A DNA stretch of 64,000 nucleotides from an uncultured Bacteroidales bacterium (GCA_946186735.1 CAMHOK010000001.1:446-64445), one strand, 5' to 3'. Positions 11,151-51,422 are shown, numbered from the stretch's first letter. The notes: generated by a model from the sequence alone, not told the origin. A program made the numbers and translations.

Positions 11151-11184
11151 GCTTTATGTCTCCTATCCTCGGGAGCCAATAAAA

Positions 11185-11372
11185 CTCAATGATGGCAGGT
11201 CTTCCGGCTTGTGATGCTTGCTCTTGCCTTCCCATCCGCTGTTTGGCGGACAGTGGCTTGAGACTTAGAGCAAACGTTCAATCACTTACGGCTGCGGGAC
11301 AGCGCAGGAGTCGCACCTGCTTCCCATCTTAGTCAGTCGTGCTCGATGAGACGACTGAAACCACCATATCTT
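11185..11372 (-). promoter_or_regulatory. Cobalamin (B12) riboswitch
   Basis: The minus strand reads ATGGTGG...GGGAAGCAGGTGCGACTCCTGCGCTGTCCCGCAGCCGTAAG...GCCACTGTCCGCC...AAGCCGGAAGACCTGCCATCAT. The last element is a full B12 box (plus-strand 11195-11211). P1 pairing ATGGTGG/CTGCCAT is possible. Confidence 0.85.
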
Positions 11373-11396
11373 ATCGTTAATCTTAAACGACGCGGC

Positions 11397-48067: not shown

Positions 48068-48113
48068 AAATAGTAAAATATCAAAAAGATTATTGCTTTG
48101 CGGCGATAATTTT

Positions 48114-48190
48114 GGCCCCGTAGCTTAGTTGAATAGAGTGTCAGATTCCGGTTCTGAAGGTCCTGGGTTTGAGTCCCAGCGGGGTCACCA
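48114..48190 (+). tRNA. tRNA-Arg (anticodon CCG), CCA encoded
   Basis: A cloverleaf can be drawn. Acceptor stem is GGCCCCG/CGGGGTC, anticodon stem TCAGA/TCTGA, loop TTCCGGT, T arm CTGGG-TTTGAGT-CCCAG, and the 3' end is ACCA. Confidence 0.88.
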
Positions 48191-48222
48191 AACAGGTCAT
48201 GCAGACCTCAAACAGTTGAATG
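48164..48222 (+). repeat. Direct repeat copy 1 (tRNA-Arg 3' 27 nt plus 32 nt downstream), att-like
   Basis: 56/59 identical to 49932..49990. Confidence 0.9.
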
Positions 48223-48270
48223 ACTAATTTTTAGTGTTATCTTGTGATAGATAAAGTCAAAACTAATCTC

Positions 48271-49212
48271 TTAGTCGTTCTTCAGCAATCTCTTTATTCT
48301 TTCATGCAGTAATGATTTATATGCTTCTTTCTGCTCTTGAGTCAAGAAAGAGCAACTGATAGTCTCTTCCCATTTGGGTAAAACAGACGCAAATCGCTCT
48401 GCTGTGTGACGGATAAAATGTACAGGGAGGTTAGCATGTCTTGCTGCTTCTTCAAAATCGCGTAACCGGATATTGGATTTTTTACCATTTAATGTCAGTG
48501 CCATTTCCTCTTTATCCTTTGGGTTCACTATTGTCACATTCACAAGGTCATAAGCAGGTGTTAAGACATATTGTGTTGCCGGTTTATACAACGAGAAGTT
48601 TTTCAAATGCATATCGTTGTTGCCCGTCAGGAAACAAAAGATTAACAATTCGTAGAAATTCGTCAAATCCAATTGTGGGATTGCGGAATACTGAGCAATC
48701 AGTTTGGCTACTTGTTCATAACTGCTTTTGTACTTGTCCTCCGTCTTGCGTTCCGCCAGTTGGCACATATCTTCCATCAAAATCTTCTGCCCCTTTGCGC
48801 CCCGGTCGAACCGCCGGGTAATATATCCGAGACTACCGTCTGCCAGGCGGATGAGCGAATGTCGTGCAACAGGCAATCTGGCATCTTCCGCCAAGTGCAT
48901 TGTAAGGTCTTCAACTTCCGGTAAGTGTTCGAATAGCTCGGTCTGGGGCTTGAAAATATATTGTCCCCATAATCCCACAATCGTCAAGCGTTTGCTGCCT
49001 TCGTGTTCTGTCAGATTAAGCGACAACTTGGCCTGTACGCCGGTAAGAGTGGTCTGCGAACGGATGATTTCGGTTGCCAGCCGTTCCATATCCGCTTGAG
49101 TATAGTCCATGAGCGGCTGCTGTTTTATGCCGAACATCTTCTTGGCACAGGACGGATGAAAATCTATCTGTCCGGGCTTTAATTTCTTATAACAATATAG
49201 ACATTTGCACAT
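48271..49212 (-). CDS. HipA-family Ser/Thr kinase toxin lacking the HipA N-terminal subdomain (HipT-like), with Cys-rich N-terminus
   Basis: HipA_C catalytic loop GNNDMHLKNFSL. N-terminal CKCLYCYKKL...HPSC motif. Confidence 0.85.
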   Translation of the reverse strand: MCKCLYCYKKLKPGQIDFHPSCAKKMFGIKQQPLMDYTQADMERLATEIIRSQTTLTGVQAKLSLNLTEHEGSKRLTIVGLWGQYIFKPQTELFEHLPEVEDLTMHLAEDARLPVARHSLIRLADGSLGYITRRFDRGAKGQKILMEDMCQLAERKTEDKYKSSYEQVAKLIAQYSAIPQLDLTNFYELLIFCFLTGNNDMHLKNFSLYKPATQYVLTPAYDLVNVTIVNPKDKEEMALTLNGKKSNIRLRDFEEAARHANLPVHFIRHTAERFASVLPKWEETISCSFLTQEQKEAYKSLLHERIKRLLKND

Positions 49213-49217
49213 ATAGA

Positions 49218-49538
49218 TTATTCTTCTATAGGTTGTACACTAACAGCTCCGATACAATCTTTGCAGCATAGCAACAGCAATCCCATTCGGTCCAATTGGG
49301 AGATATCGCTATTACGCAATGCCACATCCAACAACCAACCTTCCGGTATCAAACCGTCAAAGAACGGATGTAGGATATTACTATCATACGCTTGTTCACG
49401 AAGAGGCAGAGTTAAACTAACAGGCTCTGCGTCTGCTCTTTCTAAATAGCGGCTATCATACGTAAAACGGTATCCTGTTTCGGTCTCCTCTAAACGTCCC
49501 GCCAAAAAATCACGGACATAGATATCAGCTTTGCGCAT
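49218..49538 (-). CDS. HipA N-terminal subdomain protein (HipS-like)
   Basis: 106 aa. The VSLTLPL...FFDGLIPEGW pattern is typical of the HipA N-terminal coupling domain. Confidence 0.8.
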   Translation of the reverse strand: MRKADIYVRDFLAGRLEETETGYRFTYDSRYLERADAEPVSLTLPLREQAYDSNILHPFFDGLIPEGWLLDVALRNSDISQLDRMGLLLLCCKDCIGAVSVQPIEE

Positions 49539-49737
49539 GGTTTTTAGGTTGAGCGGTTAGACAATAATTGAACAGGTTGAGTAGTTGATTGACCGTATCC
49601 ATACGTGCAGTCGTTTTGCCTTGTTCCAACTCACGGAGAAAAGCCAGACTTACTCCTGCTTTACGGGCCGCCTCTTCTTGTGTCAAGCCATATTGTTTTC
49701 GCAAGGCTTTGACAGTGTTTGCAATTTCTGTTCTCAT
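49525..49737 (-). CDS. XRE-family HTH protein (HipB-like)
   Basis: LRKQYGLTQEEAARKAGVSLAFLRELEQGK helix-turn-helix. 14-nt overlap with the downstream HipS-like gene. Confidence 0.8.
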   Translation of the reverse strand: MRTEIANTVKALRKQYGLTQEEAARKAGVSLAFLRELEQGKTTARMDTVNQLLNLFNYCLTAQPKNHAQS

Positions 49738-49828
49738 AGTACTACATATTATAGTAGATAATCATGTCCTGTTTCTTAAATTATACTTACGATGGTATAT
49801 AAATCTGTGTAGTTCTATCGTGTTTATA

Positions 49829-49838
49829 TACTATAGTA
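49829..49838. promoter_or_regulatory. Perfect 10-bp palindrome TACTATAGTA just downstream of the islet promoter (candidate operator)
   Basis: Read directly. A related TACTA-N7-TAGTA sits at 49740-49756 next to the HTH gene start. Confidence 0.3.
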
Positions 49839-49851
49839 GTTAAAATACGTT

Positions 49852-49859
49852 GCAAAGGT
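49852..49859 (-). promoter_or_regulatory. -7 box TACCTTTG for the hipB-like operon
   Basis: Minus-strand TAnnTTTG match. Confidence 0.4.
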
Positions 49860-49931
49860 AGTAAAATACTCGATATCCGCAAATATTTTTTGCGATTTTC
49901 CGAAGATTGTGGGTACTTTGTTCCAAAGATT

Positions 49932-49990
49932 GTGGGTTTGAGTCCCGGTGGGGTCACCAAACAGATCATGCAGACCTCAAACAGTTGAAT
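49932..49990 (+). repeat. Direct repeat copy 2 (displaced tRNA-Arg 3' end plus flank), att-like
   Basis: 56/59 identical to 48164..48222. Preceded by a duplicated 12-mer AAGATTGTGGGT (49903-49914 and 49925-49936). Confidence 0.9.
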
Positions 49991-50011
49991 GGTCGGTCGT
50001 GCGGTAAAGAC

Positions 50012-50053
50012 GAAGCATCTTCTCTGAATTTGACAAGATTCAGAGAAGATGCT
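50012..50053. terminator. Perfect 16-bp hairpin (AGCATCTTCTCTGAAT / ATTCAGAGAAGATGCT, 8-nt loop)
   Basis: Read directly. Lies between the att-like repeat and the repeat array downstream of the GH57 gene. There is no strong T-tract on either strand. Confidence 0.45.
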
Positions 50054-50054
50054 C

Positions 50055-50140
50055 TCTAATTTCTAACAGCGCAGCGGTCTAACCCCTCACAGCGTAGCGT
50101 TCTCACAGCTCAGCGGTCTAACCTCTAACAGCGCAGCGTT
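50055..50140. repeat. Largest array of the 16-nt repeat family (about 4 full units with CTAACC(C/T) short units)
   Basis: The units are CTAACAGCGCAGCGGT, CTCACAGCGTAGCGTT, CTCACAGCTCAGCGGT and CTAACAGCGCAGCGTT. The array ends 1 nt before the GH57 stop codon. Confidence 0.9.
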
Positions 50141-50141
50141 C

Positions 50142-51422
50142 TTATTGCTGTTTTCTTTTGCGCAGTTTCTTTATCTCTTCTTCGAGTTCGGCTATCTCTT
50201 TCTCTTGGTTGTTGATGGTGGTGAGCAGTTCGTTGAGTTCTTCGTTCTCGATGGTGGTAGGATATTGTTCGTCAACGAGTTGCAGGAAGTCGGAGAGGAT
50301 GTTCATATAGTTGATGAAGGCATCGTAAGGCGACTCGTAAGGTGAGCCTTCGACATGTTGGTGGCTCATGTAGTGGAGATAGGTGATGTCTTGTAGTACG
50401 AGCCAGTCAGCCTTGAGTCGTTTGTCTTGGCAGAGGTGTACTCTCTCGCTCACGGCATAGAGTTTATTGAGGGCTTCTTGTTGCAGGTCGTTGCCATTGT
50501 ATGCAGCAAGGTCTTTGGCTTCTCCTGTCCATGTGAGAGCGTAGGGTACGCTTACGGTACCTGAGACGGCTATCTTCTTGCTAACCTCGGCAGGTGTGAG
50601 GAAGCCTATCTCGCGTTCGAGGGCATAGAAAGGCAGAGCTTTGAGGAAGTCGAAGATACCTGTCTGAGCGTTCTGTCTGATACCGAAAGTCTCGGCTCCG
50701 AGCCAGATGTTTACCACCTCTTCTTCGTTAGGCAGTTGGCTTATCTGCATGGCATAGCGTTCGGCATCCATGGGGTAGTTTTTCCAAGCGGGGTCAGAGA
50801 AATGGAAGGCGAGCTCATCGCTGAGTTGGTTGTTGCGGAGCAGCACTTTGAGCTTGGGCGAGAGGGCGGAGTTATATACATAGTTAGGTGATTTCCATGA
50901 CAGTATATGTTTGGCTCCTTCGGTCATTATAGTCTTATATCCCATTTGGTTGACTGTCTCGCCTATCTCGTCGGAGTAGAGCAGTTCGGTGTTCCATACG
51001 GTAGTGGGTTTGACTGAGAAGAGGTTGTTGAGTTGCTGAGCATGCTGTTTGAGTTGTGCTTCGAAGTCGGCTTTGTTGTACTCGGCAGCGAGTGAGTGTG
51101 CATAGGGTGTGAGTACGAACTCCACACACTTGGTGGCGGCGAGCTCTTTGAGGCAGTCGATCATCTCGGGTGCGTACTGTTGGAACATGTCGATGAGCAG
51201 TCCTGAAACCGACAGAGCGCAGTGGAACTTCTGGTGGGACATGCGTATCATGTCTGCCAATGTGCGGCAGAGTGGCAGATAACTGGTCTGGACGAGCCAT
51301 GAGATGTTATCTTCGGTCTGCATGTCGTCGTAGTAGTAATGGTCTTGTCCGATGTCGAAGAAACGATAGCGTTTGAGCACATACGGAGCGTGCATCTGGA
51401 AGCAAAAAGATATATTTTTCAT
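50142..51422 (-). CDS. Glycoside hydrolase family 57 (alpha-amylase-like) with C-terminal coiled coil
   Basis: The N-terminus FCFQMHAPYVLKRYRFFDIGQDHYYYDD is typical of Bacteroidales GH57 proteins. Synteny with GT4 and debranching-enzyme genes. Confidence 0.8.
   Translation of the reverse strand: MKNISFCFQMHAPYVLKRYRFFDIGQDHYYYDDMQTEDNISWLVQTSYLPLCRTLADMIRMSHQKFHCALSVSGLLIDMFQQYAPEMIDCLKELAATKCVEFVLTPYAHSLAAEYNKADFEAQLKQHAQQLNNLFSVKPTTVWNTELLYSDEIGETVNQMGYKTIMTEGAKHILSWKSPNYVYNSALSPKLKVLLRNNQLSDELAFHFSDPAWKNYPMDAERYAMQISQLPNEEEVVNIWLGAETFGIRQNAQTGIFDFLKALPFYALEREIGFLTPAEVSKKIAVSGTVSVPYALTWTGEAKDLAAYNGNDLQQEALNKLYAVSERVHLCQDKRLKADWLVLQDITYLHYMSHQHVEGSPYESPYDAFINYMNILSDFLQLVDEQYPTTIENEELNELLTTINNQEKEIAELEEEIKKLRKRKQQ

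What the first reader, a model, noticed from the sequence alone, without database searches (positions are those of the whole stretch)
48164..49990. tRNA-Arg-anchored 1.7-kb islet carrying only a three-gene HipB / HipA-N / HipA-kinase (HipBST-like) module
The last 27 nt of tRNA-Arg(CCG) plus 32 nt of downstream flank (48164-48222) recur at 49932-49990 with 56/59 identity. This is the signature of site-specific integration into a tRNA 3' end.

The 1.7 kb between the copies looks more AT-rich than the flanks. It holds only three tightly packed minus-strand genes:
- an XRE HTH protein of 70 aa;
- a 106-aa protein equivalent to the HipA N-terminal subdomain;
- a 313-aa HipA_C kinase that lacks that subdomain.

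This gene order and domain split mirror the tripartite HipBST system of E. coli O127, in which the small HipS protein, not HipB, is the antitoxin. There is no integrase, excisionase or other cargo. The element is therefore either an extremely reduced integrative element or a toxin-antitoxin module left behind as the sole survivor of one. A 12-mer (AAGATTGTGGGT) is duplicated directly next to the right-hand repeat and could be a recombinase arm-site remnant. The target and neutralisation logic of this Bacteroidota variant are not known to me.
Basis: partly seen in the sequence, partly recalled or inferred. Interest (0 to 1): 0.7.

Follow-up and report, generated by a model that had tools for sequence, protein, structure and literature searches.

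The report
HipBST toxin-antitoxin islet at tRNA-Arg
A 1.7-kb piece of foreign DNA that carries only a three-gene kinase toxin-antitoxin system of a known family (HipBST) sits next to a tRNA gene in some strains of a rumen bacterium and is missing in another; it has no recombinase gene, and related cassettes across Bacteroidales show the same pattern of long flanking repeats made of host sequence.

Summary
tRNA-Arg(CCG) lies at 48114-48190. Its 3' half plus 32 nt of flank (48151-48222) recurs at 49920-49991. Between the copies lie only hipB, hipS and hipT. The islet has the lowest GC of any 1.7-kb stretch in the window.

A same-species contig (L004) has the empty site with one repeat copy. At least 15 other assemblies carry the same minimal islet, and none carries an integrase.

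The module belongs to the Legionella-type HipBST subclade, which is already reported as widespread in Bacteroidota. The hipS/hipT split holds in 153 of 160 related loci, so it is not a frameshift. The "12-mer arm site" is a 23-nt tandem unit with variable copy number.

Beyond the finding, 12-20% of related hipBST cassettes are bracketed by long direct repeats (21-140 nt) whose sequence differs from locus to locus, against 1-2% of shifted controls. A second locus, amidase|grpE, also has a same-species empty site.

At both loci the two repeat copies are reciprocal mosaics of resident and diverged sequence. This fits entry by recombination between the chromosome and a copy of the target carried with the cassette. 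The enzyme is unknown. The toxin-antitoxin system is a known kind; this mode of spread resembles "insertion with long target duplication" of restriction-modification genes.

The parts
48114..48190 (+). Intact tRNA-Arg(CCG), the insertion target.
   Evidence: ARAGORN. Rfam tRNA model, 58.3 bits. 100% identical in occupied and empty alleles.
48151..48222 (+). Left repeat copy: the tRNA 3' half from just after the anticodon, plus 32 nt of downstream flank.
   Evidence: the repeat finder family D1. Exact-pattern count against shuffles. The base just before the 26-nt identical block is never A in left copies, but is A in all but one of the right copies seen (L196 has G) and in the empty site.
48223..48270 (-). 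48-nt spacer between the hipT stop codon and the left repeat, at the distal end of the cassette.
   Evidence: Absent from empty site L004. Not shared with the closest cassettes in other genomes.
48271..49212 (-). hipT: a 313-aa HipA_C kinase toxin that lacks N-subdomain 1. It has an N-terminal CxxC..HxxC motif, the P-loop T54-T55-L56-T57-G58, catalytic D200 and Mg-binding D222.
   Evidence: Pfam HipA_C, E 9e-48. PDB HipT(Lp) 8ezr/7vkb, E 1e-58. Invariant residues in alignment A1. Motif counts over 158 loci.
49218..49538 (-). hipS: a 106-aa protein equivalent to HipA N-subdomain 1, the predicted antitoxin. It carries W68 at the position of HipS(Ec) W65.
   Evidence: Pfam Couple_hipA, E 1e-27. 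PDB HipS(Lp), E 5e-20, and HipS(Ec), E 3e-11, with aligned residues. PEGW is present in 155/156 loci.
49525..49737 (-). hipB: a 70-aa XRE-type HTH protein, the predicted autorepressor. It overlaps hipS by 14 nt.
   Evidence: Pfam HTH_3, E 4e-12. NCBIfam couple_hipB above its cutoff. The protein is identical in other genomes although the DNA is only about 87% identical.
49738..49897 (-). Promoter and operator region. A Bacteroidetes-type -33 TTTG / -7 TAccTTTG lies at 49853-49883. Three palindromes lie at 49829-49838, 49781-49802 and 49740-49756.
   Evidence: Sequence motifs and spacing. The region is conserved from the -33 element onward among cassettes in four different genomic contexts. Operator function is inferred from the three operators of HipB(Lp) (PMC10653801).
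49898..49937 (+). The second unit merges into the right repeat copy.
   Evidence: Family D4. Three copies in L001/L102. The unit is found only in contigs of this tRNA-Arg locus. It matches tRNA positions 48152-48168 at 13/17.
49920..49991 (+). Right repeat copy: a non-functional tRNA-like 5' part (GATTGT, CCCGGT variants) joined to a resident-type 3' flank.
   Evidence: Strain table. It is followed by the same DNA that follows the tRNA in empty site L004.
50014..50053 (.). An 18-bp hairpin. It is the native terminator shared by the convergent tRNA-Arg and GH57 genes, and lies just outside the islet.
   Evidence: Inverted repeat I3. Terminator scan. It lies 23 nt after the single repeat copy in the empty site.

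Best explanation
What it is. The islet is the integrated form of a minimal hipBST cassette that has no recombinase. The cassette consists of a promoter with operators, hipB, hipS and hipT.

How it got there. The cassette entered the tRNA-Arg(CCG) locus of a rumen Paludibacteraceae lineage by recombination. The exchange was between the chromosomal segment (tRNA 3' half plus 32 nt) and a diverged copy of that same segment that travelled with the cassette. The incoming DNA was either a circle (one crossover) or a linear repeat-cassette-repeat fragment (two crossovers). The result is two reciprocal mosaic repeats. The left copy keeps the resident, functional tRNA and gains a cassette-linked flank. 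The right copy holds the incoming tRNA-like piece joined to the resident flank and terminator.

How general it is. The tRNA is only one of many targets. Related cassettes sit between long repeats made of tRNA ends, 3' ends of protein genes, or intergenic hairpins.

What it does (inferred from the Legionella and E. coli systems). HipT is a Ser/Thr kinase toxin. HipS binds it and blocks the P-loop pocket, probably with W68. HipB represses the operon through three palindromes downstream of the promoter. Addiction, and possibly defence, favours keeping the cassette.

Shown: the anatomy, family membership, the occupied/empty polymorphism, the mosaic repeats, and the enrichment of flanking repeats. 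Inferred: the recombination route, the enzyme, and toxicity and neutralisation.
For: Family:
- HipT against HipT(Lp), E 1e-58 (single sequence) and 1e-80 (profile); HipS against HipS(Lp), E 5e-20.
- Catalytic and Mg-binding motifs are present in 158/158 and 157/158 relatives.
- The tripartite gene order holds in 153/160 loci.

Foreign origin:
- The islet has the lowest GC in the window and low GC3.
- Cassettes about 86% identical in DNA lie in three other, unrelated genomic contexts.

Polymorphism:
- L004 (flank 98.7% identical) has one repeat copy and no cassette.
- At least 15 assemblies carry the same minimal islet.

Reciprocal mosaic at the window locus:
- Left copies are an intact tRNA followed by a flank variant that changes with the cassette allele.
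- Right copies are tRNA-like variants followed by the A-type flank, which is identical to the empty site.

Generality:
- Flanking repeats scoring >=18 occur in 8/67 and 12/61 cassettes, against 10/1086 and 14/690 shifted controls. Pooled Fisher p = 4e-13.
- Repeats that lie in coding 3' ends differ almost only synonymously. In L152, 9 nt differences give 0 amino-acid differences, and the two copies end in different stop codons.

Second locus (amidase|grpE):
- Full, decayed and empty alleles all exist.
- The empty site holds one copy of the 140-nt repeat.
- The same-species copies are 97.8% and 87.8% identical to it, and their differences are confined to opposite ends.
Against: - No circular form, excision junction or recombination event was observed. 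Everything is inferred from static assemblies.
- The inferred exchange interval in the window is only about 15 nt (GGGGTCACCAAAC). That is short for RecA-type recombination and typical of a tyrosine-integrase core.
- In the window and in L080 the repeat starts in the anticodon loop, a classical integrase sublocation.
- Only one empty-site contig was found for the window locus, and it could be a secondary deletion between the repeats.
- How the first repeat-cassette-repeat arrangement arises at a new site is not explained.
- Toxicity, neutralisation and the kinase target are untested, and the target of the closest characterised homologue is itself unknown (PMC10653801).
Confidence: 0.6

Rival explanations
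1. The islet is a remnant of a classical tRNA-integrating element (genomic island, IME or prophage). Its integrase and cargo were deleted, leaving attL, attR and the addictive toxin-antitoxin module. This is a CIME-like relic that a related element could still mobilise in trans.
For: - The repeat runs from the anticodon loop through the tRNA 3' end and beyond, as in many integrase systems (discussion in PMC2853133).
- L080 shows a tRNA-Met 3' half duplicated from within the anticodon loop. L117 shows a tRNA(CAT) 3' half plus terminator.
- The exchange interval is short.
- The tRNA-like 23-nt units could be scars of earlier att sites.
Against: - No integrase lies between or beside the repeats, nor in the Pfam-scanned neighbours of other repeat-bracketed cassettes.
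- About 25 contigs of the species show only the minimal islet or the empty site.
- More than 20 other loci have only hipBST between unrelated repeats, which would need the same clean reduction many times.
- The flank 26-mer is absent from viral contigs, and hipT is nearly absent from them.
- The one hint of a larger island (L002) is a mosaic that is 100% identical over 1.15 kb to another contig of the same sample. It is probably chimeric.
Confidence: 0.2
2. The cassette was inserted by an illegitimate event that duplicated the resident 72 nt on the spot, and the two copies then diverged in place. This is "insertion with long target duplication" in the strict sense described for restriction-modification genes.
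For: - There is no mobility gene, the repeat exceeds 30 bp, and the empty site has a single copy. These are the published criteria (PMC2853133), and they are met.
- The repeat includes 32 nt of locus-specific, non-tRNA flank.
- Repeat lengths vary widely between loci, from 21 to 140 nt.
Against: - In-place decay does not predict differences confined to opposite ends of the two copies.
- It does not predict almost purely synonymous differences, with different stop codons, in coding repeats.
- These patterns need a second allele that evolved under selection elsewhere.
- This mechanism may still explain the very first insertion at each site.
Confidence: 0.13
3. The islet is ancestral to this lineage and inherited vertically. 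The single "empty" contig is a recent deletion by recombination between the repeats, so nothing here is currently mobile.
For: - Only one empty contig (L004) was found, against many occupied ones.
- L004's flank equals the right copy of L001, as a repeat-by-repeat deletion would give.
- At the grpE locus the cassette is fixed in all 10 contexts that share the exact GrpE protein.
Against: - The composition is strongly foreign.
- The islet is allelically mosaic, 90-97% identical between strains while the flanks are about 99% identical.
- Near-identical HipB and about 86%-identical cassettes lie in other genomes at other sites.
- This rival concerns timing only. It does not explain how the repeats arose.
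Confidence: 0.07

Closest known systems
HipBST(Lp) of Legionella pneumophila (lpg2368-2370; PDB 7VKB, 8EZR; PMC9325769, PMC10653801)
   Same: - Same operon order, hipB-hipS-hipT.
- HipT aligns over residues 40-309 at E 1e-58, with the catalytic Asp (D200, equivalent to D197) and the Mg-binding Asp (D222, equivalent to D219).
- HipS aligns at E 5e-20.
- A phospho-acceptor Ser/Thr sits at the S54-equivalent position (T55).
- There are three spaced palindromes upstream of hipB.
- The published subclade is already reported as widespread in the FCB superphylum.
   Different: - HipS here has Trp (W68) where HipS(Lp) has I65/M66.
- The P-loop is T-L-T rather than S-V-Q.
- HipT has an invariant N-terminal CxxC..HxxC motif that does not align to HipT(Lp).
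- The palindromes differ in sequence and are about 43 nt apart rather than 53.
- The Legionella locus is conserved across that genus, whereas this one is a strain-variable islet.
HipBST(Ec) of E. coli O127:H6 (PDB 7AB3-5; PMC6581861, PMC10627512)
   Same: - Tripartite split-HipA architecture, with HipS as antitoxin.
- The HipS Trp that inserts into the kinase pocket is conserved (W65, equivalent to W68).
- The P-loop has the form [S/T]-aliphatic-[S/T].
   Different: - The relationship is much more distant: HipT E 2e-14 and HipS E 3e-11.
- The HipT(Ec) N-terminal minidomain lacks the Cys/His ligands.
- The TrpS target of HipT(Ec) cannot be assumed here, because HipT(Lp) does not share it (PMC10653801).
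"Insertion with long target duplication" of restriction-modification gene complexes (Nobusato et al. 2000, Gene 259:99; Furuta et al. 2010, PMC2853133)
   Same: - A small addictive gene module with no mobility gene.
- It is flanked by direct repeats longer than 30 bp, of variable length and locus-specific sequence.
- A related genome has an empty site with a single copy.
- Flanking repeats are statistically enriched compared with other genes.
   Different: - The cargo is a kinase toxin-antitoxin system with no nuclease. The proposal that the restriction enzyme's own DNA breakage drives the insertion therefore cannot apply.
- The repeat copies here are reciprocal mosaics and differ synonymously, which points to recombination with an imported copy rather than on-the-spot duplication.
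- I found no report of this pattern for toxin-antitoxin systems in the library searched.
Cis-mobilizable elements (CIMEs) and tRNA-integrating islands or IMEs
   Same: - The islet is bounded by repeats derived from a tRNA 3' end.
- It has no recombination or transfer genes of its own.
- It is present in some strains and absent in others.
   Different: - No cognate integrase-bearing element for this site was found.
- The same cassette family uses many unrelated repeats, including intergenic hairpins.
- No conserved cassette-end motif is evident that could serve as a recombinase site. This was judged by eye only, on the printed cassette ends.

Membership tests
HipBST tripartite toxin-antitoxin system (HipBST(Lp) subclade) | Three-gene operon in the order hipB (HTH), hipS (about 100 aa), hipT (about 300-340 aa). 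| tested here: met
   ORFs at 49737-49525, 49538-49218 and 49212-48271 on the minus strand. The same order holds in 77/80 and 76/80 relatives.
HipBST tripartite toxin-antitoxin system (HipBST(Lp) subclade) | HipT is a HipA_C kinase that lacks N-subdomain 1 but keeps the Gly-rich loop, the catalytic motif and the Mg-binding motif. | tested here: met
   Pfam HipA_C only. GNNDMHLKN and PAYD are present, and D200 and D222 align to D197 and D219 of HipT(Lp). Both are invariant in A1 and present in 158/158 and 157/158 loci.
HipBST tripartite toxin-antitoxin system (HipBST(Lp) subclade) | HipS corresponds to HipA N-subdomain 1. | tested here: met
   Couple_hipA, E 1e-27, covering residues 5-101. It aligns to HipS(Lp), HipS(Ec), and HipA residues 13-107.
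HipBST tripartite toxin-antitoxin system (HipBST(Lp) subclade) | Closer to HipT(Lp)/HipS(Lp) than to HipT(Ec)/HipS(Ec). | tested here: met
   202 bits against 57 bits for HipT, and 75 against 47 for HipS. No phylogenetic tree was built.
HipBST tripartite toxin-antitoxin system (HipBST(Lp) subclade) | HipT is toxic, HipS (not HipB) neutralises it, and HipB autoregulates the operon. | not testable with these tools
   Inferred from PMC9325769, PMC10653801 and PMC10627512. Supporting features are W68 in HipS and three palindromes between the promoter and hipB.
tRNA-integrating site-specific integrative element | Encodes a tyrosine or serine integrase next to one att site. | tested here: not met
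   Only three ORFs lie between the repeats, and none is a recombinase. The flanks are a Zn-peptidase gene and glycogen-metabolism genes. None was seen in other contigs of the locus.
tRNA-integrating site-specific integrative element | Direct repeats derived from the tRNA 3' part, with the tRNA left intact. | tested here: met
tRNA-integrating site-specific integrative element | The same att core is used wherever the element family integrates. | tested here: not met
   Related cassettes are bracketed by unrelated sequences: recG and radical-SAM 3' ends, intergenic hairpins, and other tRNAs.
Insertion with long target duplication (criteria of Furuta et al. 2010) | The insert is under 20 kb and holds only the addictive module, with no mobility gene. 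| tested here: met
   The insert is 1697 nt and holds three hip genes.
Insertion with long target duplication (criteria of Furuta et al. 2010) | Flanking direct repeat longer than 30 bp, present once in an empty site of a related genome. | tested here: met
   The window repeat is 58-72 nt, and L004 has a single copy. At the grpE locus the repeat is 140 nt, and L222 has a single copy.
Insertion with long target duplication (criteria of Furuta et al. 2010) | Both repeat copies derive from the resident target (duplication in place). | tested here: inconclusive
   Reciprocal mosaic patterns and synonymous-only differences argue that one part of each copy was imported. The first event at each site cannot be reconstructed.
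Cis-mobilizable element (CIME) | A related autonomous element with a matching integrase and att site exists and can mobilise it. | tested here: inconclusive
   None was found in the contigs examined or in viral contigs. Whole genomes of the species were not searched.

The most novel reading that the evidence does not exclude
HipBST cassettes in Bacteroidales, and perhaps other small addictive or defence cassettes such as AbiE, AAA_14/DUF4143 and AAA-ATPase/PDDEXK_9 genes, may spread as recombinase-free units. Each would carry a captured copy of a conserved host segment: a tRNA 3' half, the 3' end of a gene, or an intergenic hairpin. Those copies would act as portable homology arms. A circle, or a linear repeat-cassette-repeat fragment, could then insert into any genome that has one copy of the segment, using the host's own recombination. 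The toxin-antitoxin system would penalise loss through repeat-by-repeat deletion. That would extend "insertion with long target duplication" from restriction-modification genes to a nuclease-free module, and would give it a concrete mechanism.
Probability: 0.35. Interest if true: 0.65.

Novelty: new member of a known kind. Interest (0 to 1): 0.42.

Why it matters
- The toxin-antitoxin system itself is ordinary. It is one more member of the Legionella-type HipBST subclade, whose cellular target is still unknown.
- The locus is a clean natural experiment. Occupied, allelically mosaic and empty alleles sit at one tRNA site, and a second site has full, toxin-deleted and empty alleles.
- Together with the 10-fold enrichment of long, locus-specific repeats around these cassettes, this makes an old question directly testable: how do toxin-antitoxin modules without mobility genes move between chromosomes?
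- It also removes the need for a nuclease in the "long target duplication" pattern seen for restriction-modification systems.
- The clade features offer specific mutants for studying HipT regulation: the invariant CxxC..HxxC at the HipT N-terminus, the [S/T]LT P-loop, and the HipS Trp.

Tried and rejected
1. L002 as evidence for a larger island at the same tRNA. Its DNA upstream of hipB leaves the window sequence. However, 1.15 kb of the contig is 100% identical to another, more abundant contig of the same sample that has a different context (L208). Only its last 350 nt of hipT plus the flank are window-type. It is probably a chimeric assembly or a recent conversion, so I did not use it.
2. 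Metagenome scan with the kinase. I used it only as an independent sample for the repeat statistics.
3. Viral contigs. The 26-nt flank core gave 0 hits, and only one viral contig carries a hipT relative. There is no phage link.
4. Empty sites for the recG locus (L152). The nearest RecG proteins (93-94% identical) come from other species with no synteny downstream, so the test was uninformative.
5. Empty sites for L165. The host gene is a VirE/DUF3874 mobile-element gene, and the best hit is 73% identical, so the test was uninformative.
6. Rfam on the window, L002, L022 and L104. Only the tRNA and a cobalamin riboswitch were found, with no RNA family in the hipB upstream regions.
7. PDB search with the first 67 residues of HipT gave no hit. 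No structure prediction was run.
8. I looked by eye for terminal inverted repeats, conserved cassette-end motifs and junction microhomology in 11 repeat-bracketed cassettes. None was found.
9. The sigma-70 promoter scan gave no more hits than shuffles did. The promoter call rests on the Bacteroidetes -33/-7 consensus, which I know from memory.
I reached them through cluster members instead.
Full report

Yes. ARAGORN finds a single tRNA in the window, tRNA-Arg(CCG) at 48114-48190 on the + strand, and Rfam confirms it.

A 58-nt pattern covering the end of the tRNA and its flank matches exactly twice, at 48165-48222 and 49934-49991. One hundred shuffles gave no matches. The gapless alignment extends to 72 nt at 89% identity, 48151-48222 against 49920-49991. 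The repeat therefore starts immediately after the anticodon and ends 32 nt past the tRNA.

The 1697 nt between the copies hold three packed minus-strand ORFs and nothing else:
- A 313-aa HipA_C protein (E 9e-48).
- A 106-aa Couple_hipA protein (E 1e-27).
- A 70-aa HTH_3 protein that passes NCBIfam's couple_hipB cutoff.

The islet has the lowest GC of any 1.7-kb stretch of the window: 0.418 against a mean of 0.491 (sd 0.021). Its GC3 is 0.37-0.49, against 0.53-0.64 in neighbouring genes. The names attached to identical proteins place the organism among rumen Paludibacteraceae MAGs.

**2. Is it an insertion polymorphism?**

Yes. I looked up contigs that encode exactly the flanking Zn-peptidase and GH57 proteins. 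This gave many independent assemblies with the same islet.

It also gave one contig, L004, with flanks 98.7% identical, in which the tRNA is followed directly by the right-hand flank and the terminator hairpin. That is an empty site with one repeat copy.

All 20 contigs that encode the exact HipS protein show the same minimal islet next to GH57. A further GH57 variant gave the same picture. No integrase or larger element was seen.

One contig, L002, seemed to continue into other DNA upstream of hipB. However, 1.15 kb of it is 100% identical to a more abundant contig of the same sample from another genomic context. I treat it as chimeric or a recent conversion and do not use it.

**3. What is the module?**

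The kinase aligns to Legionella HipT(Lp) over residues 40-309 at E 1e-58, or 1e-80 with a profile. Its match to E. coli O127 HipT is far weaker, at E 2e-14. The 106-aa protein aligns to HipS(Lp) at E 5e-20 and to HipS(Ec) at E 3e-11.

The catalytic Asp (D200) and the Mg-binding Asp (D222) align to D197 and D219 of HipT(Lp). The S54 autophosphorylation site corresponds to T55, within a T-T-L-T-G loop.

The split is not a frameshift:
- hipS and hipT are in different frames.
- The kinase family has more than 8000 members of about 310 aa.
- The hipB-hipS-hipT order holds in 77/80 genome loci and 76/80 metagenome loci.

Lin et al. 2023 (PMC10653801) already report that HipBST(Lp) homologues are widespread in the FCB superphylum. 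They also report that HipS is the antitoxin, that HipB binds three operators, and that the target is neither TrpS nor GltX. The toxin-antitoxin system is therefore a new member of a known family.

Some clade-specific details may be new:
- An invariant CxxC..HxxC motif at the HipT N-terminus, present in 156/158 loci. It does not align to HipT(Lp) or HipT(Ec).
- An [S/T]-L-T P-loop.
- A HipS Trp (W68, present in 155/156 loci) at the position of the essential W65 of HipS(Ec), where HipS(Lp) has Ile (PMC10627512, PMC10653801).

Upstream of hipB there is a Bacteroidetes-type -33/-7 promoter at 49853-49883. Three palindromes follow, centred at -96, -54 and -10.5. Conservation among cassettes in four different contexts begins exactly at the -33 element and ends at the hipT stop codon.

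**4. Is the tRNA special?**

No. The closest cassettes, 83-87% identical in DNA, lie in other genomes at sites with no tRNA. HipB proteins identical to the window's occur in two other contexts:
- At the fixed edge of a variable defence island between lepA and a CitMHS gene.
- Beside exbD, in a decayed form.

I aligned the 700 nt on either side of each cassette:
- In 8 of 67 genome loci and 12 of 61 metagenome loci, the cassette is bracketed by direct repeats of 21-140 nt.
- The same was true of only 10/1086 and 14/690 pseudo-cassettes shifted within the same loci.
- The pooled Fisher test gives p = 4e-13.

The repeats differ from locus to locus. They include tRNA-Met and tRNA(CAT) 3' halves, the end of tRNA-Ser plus its terminator, the 3' ends of recG and of a radical-SAM gene, and intergenic hairpins.

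The geometry is constant and matches the window. One copy lies 80-230 nt upstream of hipB, and the other lies 4-180 nt after hipT. I saw no shared end motif, inverted repeat or junction microhomology.

**5. How were the repeats made?**

Three observations argue against simple on-the-spot duplication followed by decay.

(a) Repeats that lie in coding 3' ends differ almost only synonymously. In L152 the last 35 codons of recG are present twice, with 9 aligned nucleotide differences and no amino-acid change. One of the changes is CGA to AGG, and the two copies end in different stop codons.

(b) The amidase|grpE locus has three allelic states:
- A full cassette with 140-nt repeats (L154, L210-219).
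- A decayed cassette that has lost hipT (L220, L221).
- An empty site with exactly one copy of the 140 nt (L222).

Within one species, the upstream copy is 97.8% identical to the empty site, with differences only at its right end. The downstream copy is 87.8% identical, with differences only at its left end. The exchange lies in the shared central part.

(c) The window locus shows the same reciprocity. Every left copy is the intact tRNA followed by a flank variant (G or T before the identical 26-mer) that changes with the cassette allele. All but one of the right copies seen carry tRNA-like variants (GATTGT, CCCGG) followed by the A-type flank found in the empty site; the exception, L196, has G there.

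Such mosaics arise when the resident site recombines with a diverged copy of the same site that is linked to the cassette. This can happen by one crossover with a circle, or by two crossovers with a linear repeat-cassette-repeat fragment. The islet is also allelically mosaic between strains, at 90-97% identity while the flanks are about 99% identical. This fits repeated recombination.

**6. What remains open?**

I cannot tell whether the exchange is done by the host's homologous recombination or by an integrase acting in trans.
- In favour of an integrase: the repeat starts at the anticodon loop in the window and in L080, and the inferred exchange interval in the window is only about 15 nt.
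- Against an integrase: none was found, the targets are many and unrelated, and no cassette-end motif is conserved.

How the first arrangement arises at a new site is also unexplained.

The window has 2 copies and L001 has 3. The unit occurs only at this locus and matches the tRNA at 13/17 positions. It looks like a decayed tRNA piece amplified by slippage, not a demonstrable arm site.

**7. Comparison with what is known**

Functionally, the module should work like HipBST(Lp) and HipBST(Ec).

As a mobile unit it fits best the "insertion with long target duplication" described for restriction-modification genes (Nobusato 2000; Furuta 2010, PMC2853133). It meets those criteria: no mobility gene, a repeat longer than 30 bp, and a single copy in an empty site. 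It differs in carrying no nuclease and in showing imported, mosaic repeat copies.

It also resembles a cis-mobilizable element, but no cognate integrase-bearing element was found. I found no report of this pattern for toxin-antitoxin systems in the library searched.

**8. Verdict**

The finding is real and mostly well read. The toxin-antitoxin system belongs to a known family. The islet is a strain-variable, recombinase-less cassette.

The most interesting outcome lies beyond the original coordinates: the recurrent architecture of long repeats that act like homology arms around hipBST cassettes. It is supported statistically and by two loci with empty sites, but its mechanism is inferred rather than shown.

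Noticed in passing
window 11177-11380 (-): Cobalamin riboswitch, Rfam RF00174, 100.9 bits against a gathering score of 31.5.
   Followed up: no
window 50061-50142: A tandem repeat (39-nt period, built of 19-23-nt units TCTAACAGCGCAGCGGTCTAACC) lies between the terminator hairpin and the GH57 stop codon. Its copy number differs between strains, and most metagenome contigs break here.
   Followed up: partly
L202 10704-11654 and L203 (sister strains); target is window 48085-48092: A 951-nt element with 23-nt terminal inverted repeats (GGGAATTATATAGAAGTTAGCAC) and an 8-bp target duplication (AAAGATTA). It carries one 287-aa ORF with no Pfam hit and is inserted between the Zn-peptidase gene and tRNA-Arg.
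   Followed up: partly
window 48271-49212 (-), HipT residues 4-22; 156/158 related loci: An invariant CxxC..(11 aa)..HxxC motif at the N-terminus of Bacteroidales HipT. It does not align to HipT(Lp) or HipT(Ec) and may be a zinc knuckle in the N-terminal minidomain.
   Followed up: partly
L101, L103, L104, L105, L107, L109 (lepA ... CitMHS_2 locus): hipBST with a HipB protein identical to the window's sits at the fixed edge of a highly variable defence island. Depending on the strain, the island holds type I RM with a shufflon integrase, GmrSD, WYL, DUF1016 or HipA_2 genes.
   Followed up: no
L080 8882-10231; L094 1957-3525; L099 11937-13759: Other small cassettes are also bracketed by long direct repeats: an AAA_14/DUF4143 ATPase, an AAA-ATPase_like/PDDEXK_9 protein (68-nt repeat), and AbiEii+DUF6577 (32-nt repeat in three copies). 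The pattern may therefore not be limited to hipBST.
   Followed up: partly
L220/L221 4076-4563; L106, L108, L110: Decayed cassettes that keep hipB and a partial hipS but have lost or truncated hipT. The toxin is lost first, while the flanking repeats remain.
   Followed up: no
L022 582-714 and L104 9172-9304: A 118-nt insert flanked by a 15-nt direct repeat (AATCTTAATAATCGG) in the region upstream of hipB. L002 has a single copy of the 15-mer. The insert looks like a miniature element.
   Followed up: no
window 49525-49737 compared with L002, L101: The HipB protein is identical across genomes although the DNA is only about 87% identical, so all changes are synonymous. This points to strong purifying selection on the repressor.
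   Followed up: no
L009, L010, L202 contig ends (window 48159-48170): Several Logan contigs stop inside the tRNA near the start of the T-arm. This may signal a further allele that branches there.
   Followed up: no
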